In this document: positions 29,486 through 36,302 of the stretch, in pieces
Layout of the letters: every line of letters starts with the position of its first letter
How positions within the stretch are numbered: the stretch's first letter is position 1
Sequence record: MN445185.1
Length of the DNA stretch: 64,000 nucleotides
From: Escherichia phage vB_EcoM_EC001
Direction: 5' to 3' (one strand)
Made by a program: the position numbers and the translations under genes
The notes under the pieces: generated by a model
Database searches by the model: none
The model's input: only the letters and a program-made list of their open reading frames with translations
Told to the model about the DNA's origin: nothing

Positions 29486-29552
29486 TTTACACTCCTTTTC
29501 TCTGAGGGCGTCGAGTTCATACTATGACCCGAATCCTTAGAGGAAACAGCCA

Positions 29553-30815
29553 GTGACTACTGCTTATCAAGTGCGGGCCGACAGCGCTTTTGGCTTCTCT
29601 CGAGACACCCGAACTTGGGGAACCATCGATGTCACGCAGCCCTTAAATACCCTTTGTGCTAACTACCACCTTTTCGAAGTAGGACTAGAAGCACTAGGTG
29701 CTGAATATACCTTCTATAGCCAGTATCACCTGGCTGATTTACAAAACCGTACGGACACGTTGCAAGATTGGTTAAACACCAAGTCAGGAATCGCGATTCC
29801 AACGCTTGGGAAGGGCCTACCGAAGCTCGAATTCGTTGAGGCACACTACCAGTCTATTAATGCAGATGTGCCCGTAGAAACGCACCTGTGCCCTCCTGGT
29901 TACCATTACACTCAGGACTTCAATCCCGATGATGCACACGACGTTGTTGTAGTCTGCGACGATGAGTGGAAAGAGAAATACCGTACCGGGGTACTGTACA
30001 ACATCAACGGTCAATGGGTACCTCACCAATCTGACCCAGTGGGTGTTCGCTTAACCGGCGCTGGTAACATCGTGCGGCGTGCCAATACGCCAGACATTGG
30101 CTGTCTGGTGATGGCAAACATCGGTAAAGTAAAGACCTACCCCATATCCGGTTTAACGATGAACAAACTCGATACTACGCGAGATTACTATTCTTCGTTA
30201 ATGTTGACCTTACCCGATTCCATTACAGGGAAAACCGTTGGGTTCGTCATCGGGGGTATTCTGCATTGGTTGCCACCGCAGGGCTATTTCAGCGACCGTG
30301 CGATTATGCTGAGTCTGCCAAACCTTAGCGTGGCGAAGATTGTATTGGAAACCCGTCGCTATTACGATTGGGACGCCATCGGTGTAGGTGATTTAAGTAC
30401 GCCTACGTCCGTTCAACGTATTCGTAACTCAGAAACGTTAAAAGCGCTGCTGACGCACGAATCCTCGTTTATCTTTACGATAGACAACCCGTATCTCGAA
30501 AAAGAGATTCACGGAATAAGCCACAACGCTATCTGGGGCCGGTTCTATTTAAAAGACCCGACTGACCCAGATGGGAAGAAGACGCTAGGTCCTATCTTTA
30601 ACCGTATTGGTAAATGTGTAGGGTACTGGCCGACCTGGGAAGAAGGGGAGTGGGTCTTTAATACCACATTCTTCGACCGGGAAAACTTTTTGTTGGGGAA
30701 CGCGCGTTGGTATAACCAGAATTTGGTAAACGACGCGCAGGCAATCGTCGGGCCTTTCGGGGCTTGGGGTAAGCCGTTTGTTGAAATGCATCGCTACAAA
30801 GCACGAAAAAAATAA
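29553..30815 (+). CDS. Hypothetical protein
   Basis: 420 aa, GTG start after RBS AGAGGA; divergent from the minus-strand operon; followed by terminator 30821..30864. Confidence 0.55.
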   Translation: MTTAYQVRADSAFGFSRDTRTWGTIDVTQPLNTLCANYHLFEVGLEALGAEYTFYSQYHLADLQNRTDTLQDWLNTKSGIAIPTLGKGLPKLEFVEAHYQSINADVPVETHLCPPGYHYTQDFNPDDAHDVVVVCDDEWKEKYRTGVLYNINGQWVPHQSDPVGVRLTGAGNIVRRANTPDIGCLVMANIGKVKTYPISGLTMNKLDTTRDYYSSLMLTLPDSITGKTVGFVIGGILHWLPPQGYFSDRAIMLSLPNLSVAKIVLETRRYYDWDAIGVGDLSTPTSVQRIRNSETLKALLTHESSFIFTIDNPYLEKEIHGISHNAIWGRFYLKDPTDPDGKKTLGPIFNRIGKCVGYWPTWEEGEWVFNTTFFDRENFLLGNARWYNQNLVNDAQAIVGPFGAWGKPFVEMHRYKARKK

Positions 30816-30820
30816 AAGGT

Positions 30821-30864
30821 AAACCCTACTCCCGTTGGGAGTAGGGTACCTATATCTTTTTTTT
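30821..30864. terminator. Bidirectional intrinsic terminator
   Basis: CCCTACTCCC-GTT-GGGAGTAGGG hairpin followed by TTTTTTTT; A-run upstream. Confidence 0.7.
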
Positions 30865-30877
30865 GCCTGCAGGCCGA

Positions 30878-31087
30878 TTACGCGTTTACGTAATAGATGG
30901 CGTTGCCGAACATTTTGTTGTTGCCGCCACAAGCGGTAACTTTAAATGCTACGCCGCCTTCAGCTTCGGCTTTCTTAGCCAGCGCTTCGGTAACTTCGGT
31001 AACGGTGCTCAGTCCAGAAACCTGAACGGTGCCTGCTTCTACCAGACCAGAAACGTCGCTGCCTGCGGTGATTTCACGAATGCTCAT
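30878..31087 (-). CDS. Small DUF1471-like (YdgH/BhsA/McbA-type) domain protein without signal peptide
   Basis: GTVQVSGLSTVTEVTEALAKKAEAEGGVAFKVTACGGNNKMFGNAIYYV follows the pattern of enterobacterial BhsA-family C-terminal domains; RBS GGAG upstream. Confidence 0.55.
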   Translation of the reverse strand: MSIREITAGSDVSGLVEAGTVQVSGLSTVTEVTEALAKKAEAEGGVAFKVTACGGNNKMFGNAIYYVNA

Positions 31088-31180
31088 TTACTTATCTCCA
31101 TTAACAAATGATAGCAGAAGAACCCTATGTTCAACTACTTGTACTTCGAGGCATATTAACTGCCCCGACTCGTAAATTAG

Positions 31181-31269
31181 TTGACAATAAACCGGCTTTT
31201 GTGCGAAAAAAGTGGCTAACTGTGCACAAGCGATTCGGGTTATCGTTACAGTTAGGAGGTTTATTGTCA
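31181..31269. repeat. Inverted repeat TTGACAATAAACC ... GGTTTATTGTCA in an intergenic region
   Basis: 12-bp arms at 31181-31193 and 31258-31269 separated by about 64 nt, upstream (minus-strand sense) of the DUF1471-like gene. Confidence 0.4.
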
Positions 31270-31295
31270 CAATATACAGCTCACACGTAATTAAA

Positions 31296-32228
31296 TTAGT
31301 GCGGTGTGCTAGTGTCGTTGCCCGGACCATGGCCAGTATGTACGTGAAGAGTAAAGGTGATGCCGCCGATAACCGATTCGGTAACTGTGAAAGTGCCCTT
31401 ACCTTCACCCTTGCCGTTATAGAGGAAATCTTTACCTACTTCCAGGTTACCGGTAAATAGATTCGTTGGGCATGTGGTCTTCCAGTCTTCAGTCGTCCAT
31501 GCCACGTTTTTCGACGCTGTAGAGTTGCGAGTTTCGCACTTCTCGTTAATCGTTTTTGTCTCGAGATTAATAGAACGTTTAGCATAAATGAAAGCGTCCT
31601 CTTTATTGATATTAATCTTCGACCGGCAGGCGTTTTCAAACCCTAAGTCATCCTCCGGAGAATTGAGGTAGAACTTACGCCCTTCGTCATCCACTAACTG
31701 GCAAAACCCGTCACGGGTATTCAGCTGGAGCAAATACGCGTTTTTCTCACCGTTAGTCATACTGGTACGTAGAGTAATGTGACCATCCATCGGGGAGATA
31801 TTCAGTACGTAGGCGTTAGAGAGGTCATCGGCCATCTGGTTTACTGGGTCAGCAGACCAGGCGTATACCCCATCTTCCAGTCGCTTAACGTTACTGTTGT
31901 TTAAATCTTCCCAGAAGTACATATCGGTTTCACCGATACGCCAGATTCTTACGTAGTCTTCTTTTTTCACATCCGGAGGGTTAACCCGGTTGCTGTTGGA
32001 CTTCATCCATTTTGCAGTGATGGCATTACCTTGCTTTACAGTAAGGTTGTCAGCACCACTTAAACTGTTGTGTTGCTTCTCTACAGGTGTCTCTGTTGCA
32101 TCGACAGCTGTAGGATTAATAAAGTTAACTTCGATAGGGATGACTTTAACTCGAGTGGCACCACGAGGTTTATCTTCCGCGACGATACCTATCGAGAAGA
32201 TGTGCAACCCTGACTTAGATTTATTCAT
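31296..32228 (-). CDS. Hypothetical protein with His/Gly-rich C-terminus (possible structural protein)
   Basis: 310 aa; C-terminus ...ITFTLHVHTGHGPGNDTSTPH. Confidence 0.5.
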   Translation of the reverse strand: MNKSKSGLHIFSIGIVAEDKPRGATRVKVIPIEVNFINPTAVDATETPVEKQHNSLSGADNLTVKQGNAITAKWMKSNSNRVNPPDVKKEDYVRIWRIGETDMYFWEDLNNSNVKRLEDGVYAWSADPVNQMADDLSNAYVLNISPMDGHITLRTSMTNGEKNAYLLQLNTRDGFCQLVDDEGRKFYLNSPEDDLGFENACRSKININKEDAFIYAKRSINLETKTINEKCETRNSTASKNVAWTTEDWKTTCPTNLFTGNLEVGKDFLYNGKGEGKGTFTVTESVIGGITFTLHVHTGHGPGNDTSTPH

Positions 32229-32408
32229 ACCACCCTCCTCTCATACTACACTTTTTTACGTTTCGATCTCATCGTTTGACAATCGAGGAGTGTACGGGGG
32301 TAAGGGGGTTTATGTATTGGATGCGAACATAAACGGAGGTATCCGTAGGATACCGACATCCTTTTTGTAGTTGACCTTGACTTTTAACCTAACGAGGAGT
32401 GCAGTACC

Positions 32409-32726
32409 ATGTCTTTATTTCAAACCATTAAAAGTGCATTAGAGCGTAATGATGCAGACAGTGCCTTTACTGCGTTACAGAAAGCCAGTAACGGGAAGCT
32501 AGATAGCGTCTTTGCTAACAATCAAAGAATGCGCTTTTACAAAGTCGGGGAAGTAGACCAGTTCTACAACGAACTGTTTACAGGGGTAGTGCAAAGCGCG
32601 GTATACGCCATGCCGACTGAACAACTAAGTCAGTTTGAAAAAGGGATGCGTTACCAGCGGTTAAGTAACGACTACTCATTACTGAATCTGGCTATCGATG
32701 ACTGCGTCGTACTGGTTGTATACTAA
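32409..32726 (+). CDS. Hypothetical protein
   Basis: 105 aa ORF. Confidence 0.4.
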   Translation: MSLFQTIKSALERNDADSAFTALQKASNGKLDSVFANNQRMRFYKVGEVDQFYNELFTGVVQSAVYAMPTEQLSQFEKGMRYQRLSNDYSLLNLAIDDCVVLVVY

Positions 32727-36251: not shown

Positions 36252-36302
36252 AATATCTCAGATATATATTACTTAGGTGAGAGTTAAGAGATTAACTCAA
36301 CT

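What the first reader, a model, noticed from the sequence alone, without database searches (positions are those of the whole stretch)
30878..31087. BhsA/YdgH-like (DUF1471-type) domain protein lacking a signal peptide
The 69-aa product matches the C-terminal signature of enterobacterial DUF1471 stress/biofilm proteins (GT.x.SG ... KKAEAEGG.AFKVT..GG.N...G.A.YYV). Those host proteins are exported, whereas this one begins directly with the domain. It may be a host-derived accessory gene repurposed for a cytoplasmic role or as a decoy.
Basis: partly seen in the sequence, partly recalled or inferred. Interest (0 to 1): 0.45.

Follow-up and report, generated by a model that had tools for sequence, protein, structure and literature searches.

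The report
Abundant signal-less DUF1471 jumbo-phage protein
A giant Salmonella phage carries a copy of a bacterial periplasmic stress-protein domain that has lost its export signal and appears to be made in very large amounts inside infected cells; what it does there is unknown.

Summary

RefSeq already names the domain. New here:
- It is a conserved family (65 phage records, about five genera of SPN3US-like jumbo phages of Enterobacterales), always between the central-spike gene and a baseplate gene.
- It is its own transcription unit, with a phage promoter-like motif, a Shine-Dalgarno sequence and a strong terminator.
- Its codon usage matches the most abundant phage proteins: first of 202 ORFs when scored against major capsid, internal head and scaffold genes.

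Published SPN3US proteomics fits this. gp172 is flagged "unusually high abundance in cell". It appears only erratically in virion preparations, is highest in the crude one, and does not follow the tail proteins.

It is therefore most likely an abundant non-structural protein, not BhsA and not a spike tip. Its molecular function remains unresolved.

The parts
30878..31087 (-). CDS of the 69-aa signal-less DUF1471 protein (= SPN3US gp172 / SPN3US_0172 / YP_009153466), stop codon included
   Evidence: ORF list. Pfam PF07338 E 3.3e-11. phrog_8068. 100% aa identity to SPN3US and 27 other Seoulvirus records. dN/dS 0.07-0.25 between closer orthologues.
31088..31099 (-). Translation start region: Shine-Dalgarno GGAG (31099-31096), 8-nt spacer, in-frame TAA (31090-31088) immediately before the ATG
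   Evidence: Read directly from the sequence. GGAG/GAGG is conserved in eight orthologous loci (alignment A3).
31152..31176 (-). Candidate phage promoter: TTTAC (31176-31172), 16 nt, TATG (31155-31152). The predicted start is G 31152, giving a 65-nt leader
   Evidence: TTTAC-N14-17-TATG occurs 19 times in 204 kb. Twelve matches are in non-coding DNA, against 1.26 +/- 1.17 in shuffles. The gp172 copy would be a 13th; I infer it was masked by a spurious ORF, because it does not appear in the list. The element is conserved upstream of the orthologues in Caitlin, Asesino, SPAsTU and Wellington. It resembles the phiKZ middle-promoter architecture, AAanTTACc at about -24 plus TATG at the start site (PMC4666361). 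The start site has not been mapped experimentally.
30806..30862 (.). Bidirectional intrinsic terminator between the convergent genes gp172 and gp171. The stem is 30823-30847, with an A-tract on one side and a T-tract on the other
   Evidence: Terminator scan. RNA fold -30.7 kcal/mol, z -6.15, 0 of 200 shuffles as stable.
31296..32228 (-). Upstream neighbour gp173: central spike (cell-puncturing device) of the baseplate. It is a homologue of phiKZ gp164 and carries a Mu gp45-like C-terminal apex
   Evidence: PDB sequence search: 6orj/9xph PHIKZ164 E 3e-27 (residues 6-223); Mu gp45 E 2e-3 (residues 243-304). phrog_3216 'baseplate assembly protein'. Tail protein by mass spectrometry.
29553..30815 (+). 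Convergent downstream neighbour gp171: peripheral baseplate protein, homologue of phiKZ gp130. It is an essential tail protein in SPN3US
   Evidence: PDB 9xqd PHIKZ130 E 1.3e-10. Essential and tail-associated (PMC5105663). Role of phiKZ gp130 (PMC13250141).
31266..31276 (-). Distal conserved element TATATTGTGAC, just after the spike stop codon. Its function is unknown; it may or may not belong to the gp172 unit
   Evidence: Similar ACGYKT-N6-TATATTGTG sites lie in three other SPN3US regions. Two are intergenic by my ORF calls. The third was called coding, but by the RefSeq gene table it is intergenic, upstream of thymidylate kinase. The element is not significant within the window alone. In Asesino, SPAsTU and Wellington a hairpin plus T-run lies between it and the gene, so it is probably not the gp172 promoter.

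Best explanation
The gene encodes gp172 of an SPN3US-like jumbo phage. It is a single DUF1471 domain derived from the enterobacterial family of small exported stress and biofilm proteins, but without the signal peptide, so it is made and stays in the cytoplasm of the infected cell.

It is a self-contained expression unit inserted in the baseplate gene cluster, directly after the central-spike gene. The unit has a phage promoter-like element, a good ribosome-binding site, the most expression-adapted codon usage of any non-reference gene examined, and a strong terminator. The protein accumulates to very high levels.

It is not a stoichiometric part of the virion. The few peptides seen in some virion preparations are best read as carry-over or loose binding of a very abundant soluble protein.

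What is shown: domain identity, absence of an export signal, conservation and synteny, purifying selection, extreme codon adaptation, and the published abundance and purification behaviour.

What is inferred, with low confidence (about 0.25 for this step alone): it acts as a high-copy monomeric binder that does, outside the periplasm, what DUF1471 domains do inside it, namely bind an envelope-related partner. It would act either in the cytoplasm late in infection or after release at lysis, when envelope debris and neighbouring cells are exposed to it. Its fixed place in the host-contact (spike/baseplate/fibre) module suggests the target relates to the cell envelope or to adsorption.

The confidence value given (0.55) is for the descriptive core: an abundant, non-exported, non-structural phage protein of DUF1471 origin.
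For: Domain and fold.

No signal peptide. Its N-terminus (MSIREITAG...) aligns with the mature N-termini of bacterial relatives such as P0021 (AAQEITADD...).

Family and synteny: 65 phage records, all 197-251 kb jumbo phages of Salmonella, Erwinia, Cronobacter, E. coli and Proteus. The order is always spike, then a 208-316 nt gap, then the DUF1471 gene, then a convergent gp171-like gene. dN/dS is 0.07-0.25 for the closer pairs.

Codon usage:
- E. coli CAI is 0.683, rank 3 of 206 ORFs. Only MCP gp75 (0.716) and gp53 (0.693) are higher; tail tube scores 0.566 and sheath 0.461.
- With weights taken from the phage's own MCP, gp53, gp54 and gp22 genes, gp172 is rank 1 of 202 (0.719 versus mean 0.320, sd 0.091). 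None of 20,000 random 69-codon windows reach that value.
- Orthologues in seven other phages score 0.53-0.68, against 0.18-0.51 for their neighbours.

Published proteomics:
- Reilly et al. 2020, Table S2, carries the comment 'Unusually high abundance in cell' for gp172.
- Spectrum counts are 6 and 3 in CsCl-step virions, 0 in virions purified by step plus buoyant-density gradients, 2 in heads, 13 in a crude differential-centrifugation sample, and 0 in the three gradient-purified prohead+tail samples (a fourth, less pure tail-containing sample also gave 0), where gp171 gives 23-39 and gp173 gives 3-27.
- gp172 is absent from the 2016 tables.
- It has no row in the held text of the 2023 supplement, which does list trace non-virion proteins such as gp174.

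Own transcription unit.
Against: Ali et al. 2017 list gp172 among 86 virion proteins (4 peptides, 81% coverage). Its spectra-per-mass value (0.86) is similar to that of the 12-copy portal.

A 7-kDa protein can be lost from gels, so its absence in other runs is weak evidence, as the authors themselves caution.

I could not read the primary infected-cell proteomics paper (Weintraub 2019). The abundance claim therefore rests on a one-line comment in a supplement plus codon usage.

Codon adaptation is an indirect proxy, and the gene has only 69 codons.

Nothing tested here identifies a ligand or partner. Bacterial DUF1471 proteins themselves have no defined biochemical activity.
Confidence: 0.55

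Rival explanations
1. gp172 is a genuine but loosely bound virion component, on the baseplate/spike or as a decoration. It would ride on the particle and reach the host envelope or periplasm by tail contraction, so it needs no Sec signal. High salt (CsCl) would strip it off.
For: It was detected in CsCl-step purified virions with 81% sequence coverage. The gene sits between the spike and baseplate genes in every member of the clade. In phiKZ the gene right after the spike gene encodes the spike tip gp163.1. Loss on further purification is what a weakly bound protein would show. Delivery by the tail would explain the missing signal peptide.
Against: It does not co-vary with tail proteins. It is 0 in the three gradient-purified prohead+tail samples (a fourth, less pure tail-containing sample also gave 0) and in the most purified tailed virions, and it has no row in the held 2023 supplement. 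The 2 spectra in tailless heads argue against a tail location. The SPN3US spike already has its own Mu gp45-like apex. The phiKZ tip is a PAAR protein with no similarity to gp172. Capsid-level codon adaptation is far more than a few copies per baseplate would need. If it were a high-copy decoration, many more spectra would be expected.
Confidence: 0.2
2. gp172 is a non-structural assembly factor (chaperone or catalyst) for the spike, baseplate or fibre network. It would be encoded next to its client, as tail-fibre assembly proteins are, and be absent from finished particles.
For: It has a conserved position directly downstream of the spike gene, inside the gp167-173 tail module. It is absent from stringently purified virions but present in crude assembly mixtures. 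It has a phage promoter of a class also found before structural genes.
Against: No known phage chaperone family has this fold. The BFVD search found only orthologues. Chaperones are usually not expressed at capsid-protein level. Related jumbo phages with homologous spikes (phiKZ, RAY, Goslar-type; 293 records) lack the gene, so the spike does not generally need it. It was not among the essential genes found in the SPN3US amber screen, although that screen was not saturating.
Confidence: 0.12
3. gp172 is a high-copy cytoplasmic sponge or decoy that sequesters a small molecule or a host defence or stress factor. It would use the ligand-binding potential of the DUF1471/YbjQ/dodecin-like fold.
Against: Isolated DUF1471 domains are monomeric. 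An AF2 tandem construct gave no confident dimer (pTM 0.43). Dodecin and YbjQ ligand sites are formed between subunits. The single Cys is not conserved. No ligand-binding residues are known for DUF1471. Net charge is only about -2, so it is not a DNA mimic.
Confidence: 0.1
4. gp172 is an orthologue of the host stress protein BhsA (as some GenBank records annotate it) and gives the infected cell 'multiple stress resistance'.
For: The best NCBIfam matches are McbA and BhsA. Kwan, Stratton, Wellington and SPAsTU records carry that name.
Against: The scores are 39-41 bits against equivalog cutoffs of 90-110. There is no signal peptide, whereas all family members are predicted to be exported, and YdgH without its signal does not complement. 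Identity to the nearest bacterial relatives is only 40-47% over the domain.
Confidence: 0.03

Closest known systems
Enterobacterial DUF1471 (PF07338) proteins: BhsA/YcfR, McbA/YbiM, YbiJ, YhcN, YahO, SrfN, and the three domains of YdgH
   Different: It has no Sec signal peptide and is encoded by a virulent jumbo phage. It falls far below every named equivalog cutoff, so it is not BhsA or McbA. It is expressed from a phage promoter with capsid-level codon adaptation. The bacterial proteins work in the periplasm or at the outer membrane, and that location was shown to be required for YdgH function.
RcsF (outer-membrane lipoprotein sensor of the Rcs envelope-stress system; PDB 2y1b, 9biy)
   Different: Sequence identity is only 11%. 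RcsF is a lipoprotein with disulfides that acts in the envelope. No sequence-level relationship or shared functional residues were shown, so this is a fold resemblance only.
phiKZ gp163.1 spike-tip protein (PAAR)
   Same: It is a small protein encoded immediately downstream of the homologous central-spike gene.
   Different: gp163.1 homologues carry a PAAR motif (Pfam E 1.6e-6) and follow the spike gene after 10 nt. gp172 has no similarity to them (BLASTP finds nothing). It is separated from the spike gene by 208 nt with its own promoter-like element. The SPN3US spike has its own Mu gp45-like apex.
Phage 'morons' / host-derived accessory genes inserted as autonomous promoter-gene-terminator units in structural modules
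   Same: It is a compact, self-contained expression unit of apparent host origin, placed between structural genes.
   Different: Classical morons are in temperate phages and are expressed from the prophage. This one is in a virulent jumbo phage, uses a phage-type promoter motif, and is conserved across about five genera.

Membership tests
DUF1471 / YdgH_BhsA-like (Pfam PF07338) | Significant match to the family HMM above the curated gathering score | tested here: met
   43.5 bits against a cutoff of 27, E 3.3e-11, profile positions 2-54 of 55.
DUF1471 / YdgH_BhsA-like (Pfam PF07338) | Compact beta-alpha-beta-beta DUF1471 fold, as in the solved YdgH, SrfN and YahO domains | tested here: met
DUF1471 / YdgH_BhsA-like (Pfam PF07338) | N-terminal Sec signal peptide and periplasmic or outer-membrane location (stated for all family members in PMC11705850) | tested here: not met
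   An in-frame stop precedes the ATG. There is no hydrophobic N-terminal segment: KD maximum 1.24 against a bacterial mean of 2.37. Localisation itself was not measured.
DUF1471 / YdgH_BhsA-like (Pfam PF07338) | Restriction to Enterobacterales | tested here: met
   All 65 phage records with the gene infect Salmonella, Erwinia, Cronobacter, E. coli or Proteus. Homologous spikes in jumbo phages of Pseudomonas, Vibrio and Aeromonas are not accompanied by it.
BhsA (NCBIfam NF047859) / McbA (NF040473) equivalogs | Score above the curated equivalog cutoff | tested here: not met
   BhsA 39.4 bits against 90. McbA 40.9 against 110. YbiJ 29.6 against 110.
Virion (tail/baseplate) structural protein of SPN3US | Reproducible presence in purified virions, co-varying with other tail proteins and absent from tailless heads | tested here: not met
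   Literature data: 6 and 3 spectra in step-gradient virions, 0 in the most purified virions, 2 in heads, 13 in the crude pellet, 0 in the three gradient-purified prohead+tail samples (a fourth, less pure tail-containing sample also gave 0). It is absent from the 2016 tables and has no row in the held 2023 supplement. Caveat: small proteins can be lost from gels.
PAAR spike-tip proteins (phiKZ gp163.1, T4 gp5.4) | PAAR motif / conical tip fold binding the blunt end of the spike beta-helix | tested here: not met
   The phiKZ-type tip protein (SL2 homologue) hits Pfam PAAR_motif; gp172 does not. BLASTP finds no similarity. The spike gp173 carries its own Mu gp45-like apex.
YbjQ (DUF74) / dodecin-type oligomeric small-ligand binders | Homo-oligomer with ligand sites between subunits | tested here: inconclusive

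The most novel reading that the evidence does not exclude
gp172 is a viral mimic of the host's mature periplasmic DUF1471 stress proteins that is deliberately kept out of the periplasm and made in capsid-like amounts. It would act as a high-copy binder or decoy towards an envelope-derived or defence-related partner. It could do this in the cytoplasm, or after lysis by coating envelope debris or neighbouring cells so that giant progeny virions are not wasted or trapped. This would be the first assigned role of a DUF1471 domain outside the periplasm, and would give a handle on what the whole enigmatic family binds.
Probability: 0.12. Interest if true: 0.75.

Novelty: new variant of a known kind. 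Interest (0 to 1): 0.45.

Why it matters
DUF1471 proteins are among the most strongly stress-induced small proteins of E. coli and Salmonella, and no biochemical activity is known for any of them.

Here a clade of nucleus-forming-type jumbo phages has kept one for a long time. The phages have removed its export signal and tuned it to the expression level of capsid proteins. That implies a strong, selectable activity of the bare domain in a different compartment.

SPN3US has a working genetic system and extensive proteomics. The gene is therefore a tractable entry point into two questions: what DUF1471 domains bind, and what abundant non-structural proteins do in jumbo-phage infection.

Practically, the 'BhsA multiple stress resistance protein' labels in several phage GenBank records are over-annotations. 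The 'virion protein' label for gp172 should be treated with caution.

Tried and rejected
- **Apparent gene disruption in SPFM phages.** tblastn gave split or partial hits in eight SPFM phages. The three records I aligned carry this region as 60-nt blocks in reversed order, a database artefact.
- **Phylogeny against bacterial homologues.** 55 aligned columns cannot resolve phage monophyly (6/200 bootstraps). Within-phage identity (minimum 41%) overlaps phage-to-bacterium identity (40-47%).
- **Spike-tip hypothesis.** Rejected, because the phiKZ tip is a PAAR protein and the SPN3US spike has its own apex.
- **Homodimer test.** An AF2 tandem construct gave pTM 0.43, which is uninformative or negative.
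- **Rfam scan of 30700-31400.** No known RNA family.
- **Sigma-70 promoter scan.** No hits.
- **Distal TATATTGTGAC motif.** Suggestive across loci, but not significant in the window, and separated from the gene by a terminator in some relatives.
- **Structural search of viral proteins (BFVD).** It found only orthologues and the Wellington paralogue.
- **Word-indexed protein search.** It returned only phage-type proteins. The exhaustive HMM search was needed to reach bacterial relatives. Two of its top hits (P0012, P0016) are long repeat proteins matched in 20-24 stretches; P0012, on inspection, is a false positive, and P0016 was not inspected.
- **The 617-aa high-CAI protein.** I first took it for the nuclear-shell protein. 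By size and numbering it is gp22, the scaffold candidate. It has no PDB sequence match.
- **The infected-cell proteomics paper (Weintraub 2019).** Not available in the library.

Full report
**What the window is.** The region 29500-32500 is 98.6% identical to Salmonella jumbo phage SPN3US (Seoulvirus, 240 kb). The ORF at 30878-31087 lies on the minus strand. It is 100% identical in protein to SPN3US_0172 (gp172), which RefSeq names 'DUF1471 domain-containing protein'.

**Checking the observation.**
- The 69-aa product matches Pfam PF07338 (YdgH/BhsA/McbA-like) above the curated threshold: 43.5 bits against 27, E 3.3e-11. It matches phrog_8068 end to end.
- NCBIfam models for McbA, BhsA and YbiJ align only through their mature parts (positions 29-85 of 86). 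Their scores are far below the equivalog cutoffs: 41, 39 and 30 bits against 110, 90 and 110.
- The ATG (31087-31085) is preceded by a GGAG Shine-Dalgarno sequence and, immediately, by an in-frame TAA. No longer form exists.
- The N-terminal region has no hydrophobic core.
- An exhaustive profile search of 1.84 billion representatives found four or five signal-less phage-type clusters (E below 1e-24). After those came bacterial proteins of 78-92 aa. Their match begins near residue 27-31, after an obvious Sec signal peptide.
- The phage N-terminus (MSIREITAG) lines up with the mature N-termini of bacterial relatives (for example AAQEITADD). The phage protein therefore corresponds to the processed form.

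**Distribution and selection.**
- tblastn finds the gene in 65 of 50,697 phage records. All are 197-251 kb jumbo phages of Salmonella, Erwinia, Cronobacter, E. coli or Proteus, from Seoulvirus, Machinavirus, Erskinevirus, Wellingtonvirus and Derbicusvirus.
- In eight loci examined the order is invariant: central-spike gene, a 208-316 nt gap, the 67-73 aa DUF1471 gene, a short spacer, and a convergent gp171-like gene.
- Closer pairs have dN/dS of 0.07-0.25. Twenty-eight Seoulvirus records have an identical protein, although the surrounding DNA differs by 1.4-3%.
- Homologous spikes occur in 293 jumbo-phage records from many host genera, and most lack the gene. It is therefore an addition specific to the Enterobacterales-infecting clade. 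This matches the taxonomic limits of DUF1471 itself (PMC11705850).
- A tree on 55 columns cannot show phage monophyly. Single acquisition is inferred from synteny only.

**Neighbours.**
- gp173 (31296-32228, minus strand) is the central spike. Its residues 6-223 match phiKZ gp164 (PDB 6orj/9xph, E 3e-27). Its residues 243-304 match the apex domain of the Mu gp45 spike.
- gp171 (29553-30815, plus strand) matches phiKZ gp130, a peripheral baseplate connector. It is an essential tail protein in SPN3US.
- In phiKZ the gene just after the spike gene encodes the monomeric spike tip gp163.1. In a phiKZ-like genome that gene follows the spike gene after 10 nt. It is a PAAR protein with no similarity to gp172. 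phiKZ-type spikes also lack the Mu-like apex that gp173 has.

The positional analogy with a spike tip therefore does not hold.

**Expression signals.**
- A hairpin at 30823-30847, flanked by A- and T-tracts, is a strong bidirectional terminator (-30.7 kcal/mol, z -6.15).
- Sixty-five nucleotides upstream of the ATG lies TTTAC-N16-TATG (31176-31152, minus strand).
- This bipartite pattern occurs 19 times in 204 kb of SPN3US sequence. Twelve matches are in non-coding DNA, against 1.26 +/- 1.17 in shuffles. Most of these lie 25-99 nt upstream of an ORF on the same strand. The gp172 copy is an inferred thirteenth, masked by a spurious ORF.
- The pattern is conserved before the orthologues in Caitlin, Asesino, SPAsTU and Wellington.
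- It resembles the phiKZ middle-promoter layout, a TTAC motif near -24 with TATG at the start site. TATG alone marks phiKZ late promoters read by the non-virion RNA polymerase (PMC4666361).

gp172 thus looks like an autonomous, phage-transcribed, monocistronic unit. The start site is predicted, not mapped.

**Codon usage.**
- With E. coli high-expression weights (Sharp and Li values recalled from memory), gp172 has CAI 0.683. The mean over 206 ORFs is 0.32. It ranks third, after the major capsid protein gp75 (0.716) and the internal head protein gp53 (0.693). It ranks above gp22, gp54, the tail tube (0.566) and the sheath (0.461).
- A second test does not depend on memory. Weights were derived from the phage's own gp75, gp53, gp54 and gp22 genes. 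gp172 is then first of 202 remaining ORFs (0.719; mean 0.320, sd 0.091). None of 20,000 random 69-codon windows from other genes reaches it.
- Orthologues in seven other phages, down to 48% protein identity, are each the top-scoring gene of their neighbourhood (0.53-0.68 against 0.18-0.51).

The bias is therefore maintained by selection and is not a remnant of recent transfer.

**Published experiments.**
- Ali et al. 2017 listed gp172 as the smallest of 86 virion proteins: 6 spectra, 4 peptides, 81% coverage. They noted it was missing from a gp47 mutant.
- It is absent from the four samples of Thomas et al. 2016. In those, gp167-171 and gp173 behave as tail proteins.
- In Reilly et al. 2020, Table S2, its counts are as follows:

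| Sample | gp172 spectra |
|---|---|
| Two CsCl-step virion preparations | 6 and 3 |
| Tailed virions purified by step plus buoyant-density gradients | 0 |
| Heads | 2 |
| Pellet from differential centrifugation only | 13 |
| Three gradient-purified prohead+tail preparations (gp171 gives 23-39, gp173 gives 3-27), plus a fourth, less pure tail-containing sample | 0 |

[quoted passage not shown] - In the held text of the 2023 supplement (triplicate virion and tailless-particle data), gp171, gp173 and even trace non-virion proteins such as gp174 are listed. gp172 has no row.
- The primary infected-cell proteomics paper could not be read.

**Interpretation.** The evidence converges on an abundant, cytoplasmically made, non-structural protein. 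Its occasional appearance in virion preparations reflects carry-over or loose binding.
- The lack of a signal peptide means it cannot do the periplasmic job of its bacterial relatives from where it is made. For YdgH, removing the signal abolishes function.
- Isolated DUF1471 domains are monomeric. An AF2 tandem construct gave no confident dimer (pTM 0.43). Both points weaken dodecin- or YbjQ-style oligomeric 'sponge' models.
- What it binds is unknown.
- My preferred reading, held with low confidence, is a high-copy monomeric binder of an envelope-related partner. It would act late in infection or after lysis. This rests on its fixed place in the host-contact module and its restriction to phages of the bacteria that own the family.
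- The rivals are a loosely bound virion or periplasm-delivered cargo protein, a spike or baseplate assembly factor, and a cytoplasmic sponge or decoy. 'BhsA orthologue' is rejected.

**Novelty and verdict.** The domain assignment is already in RefSeq, and the protein is mentioned in two papers. It is not a new discovery as such. As far as the searchable literature shows, the following have not been described:
- the missing export signal as a clade-wide feature;
- the conserved synteny;
- the autonomous expression unit;
- the capsid-level codon adaptation;
- the re-reading of the proteomics as evidence against true virion membership.

It is a new variant of a known family with an open function. 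Interest is moderate.

Noticed in passing
L006 (LR535911 SPFM12), L007 (LR535904 SPFM7), L008 (LR535908 SPFM10), all at the gp172 region; by hit pattern also SPFM5, 6, 9, 14 and 15: These GenBank records carry the region as 60-nt blocks in the correct orientation but in reversed order, as if FASTA lines had been reversed. This produces fake truncated 61-aa 'hypothetical proteins' (P0009-P0011) and inflated gene counts. It is a database artefact, not gene disruption.
   Followed up: partly
window 36258-36282 (+); also L014 about 6299, 15418 and 44244; L015 about 23282: A 25-nt element, TCAGATATATATTACYTAGGTGAGA, is repeated almost exactly at five places in front of genes (0 expected by chance in the window). 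It contains a TATATTAC core, which I recall (from memory, not checked here) as the phiKZ early-promoter core. It is probably the SPN3US early (virion RNA polymerase) promoter.
   Followed up: partly
window 8979, 15072(-), 34739, 39441, 59167; L013 1161; L014 14412, 22661, 42595, 44211 (predicted start sites): A bipartite promoter-like class, TTTAC-N14-17-TATG, is strongly enriched in non-coding DNA (12 observed against 1.3 expected). Most copies lie 25-99 nt upstream of an ORF on the same strand. It resembles phiKZ middle promoters.
   Followed up: partly
L003 3242-3802 (Erwinia phage Wellington gp189), directly downstream of the Wellington DUF1471 gene: This is a second signal-less DUF1471 gene: an N-terminal domain (Pfam E 6.5e-7) followed by a roughly 120-aa acidic, apparently disordered tail. 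Its codon adaptation is also raised (0.50). A 52-aa ORF (gp191) sits between the spike and the first copy. The locus is evolutionarily dynamic.
   Followed up: partly
window 31296-32228 (-) compared with L016 1947-3104 (phiKZ-like SL2) and L017 (RAY): Spike architecture differs within the phiKZ-like phages. SPN3US-type and RAY-type spikes carry a Mu gp45-like C-terminal apex and have no PAAR gene after them. phiKZ-type spikes stop at about residue 222 of the alignment and are followed after 10 nt by an 88-aa PAAR tip gene.
   Followed up: partly
L010 5001-5210 (Salmonella phage SPAsTU, classified as Seoulvirus): SPAsTU carries the Erskinevirus-type (Asesino-like) allele of the DUF1471 gene, differing from it at only a few residues. 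By eye it is much less like the SPN3US-type allele. This suggests allele exchange at this locus between phage genera, or a mosaic genome.
   Followed up: no
window 31266-31290 (-); L013 about 35395; L014 about 43476 and 45810: An ACGYKT-N6-TATATTGTG(A/T)C element is found in or near gene-upstream regions before gp172, gp38, thymidylate kinase (gp100) and a GNAT gene. Two sites are intergenic by my ORF calls and a third by the RefSeq table. There are too few copies for statistics. It could be another promoter or regulatory class.
   Followed up: partly
L013 15768-17621 (SPN3US gp22), L015 24924-25412 (gp252), L013 40674-41174 (gp43), window 59196-59495: Besides known abundant structural proteins, a few ORFs of unknown function also show raised codon adaptation (0.47-0.66 on the E. 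coli scale). They may be further highly expressed non-structural proteins worth a look.
   Followed up: no
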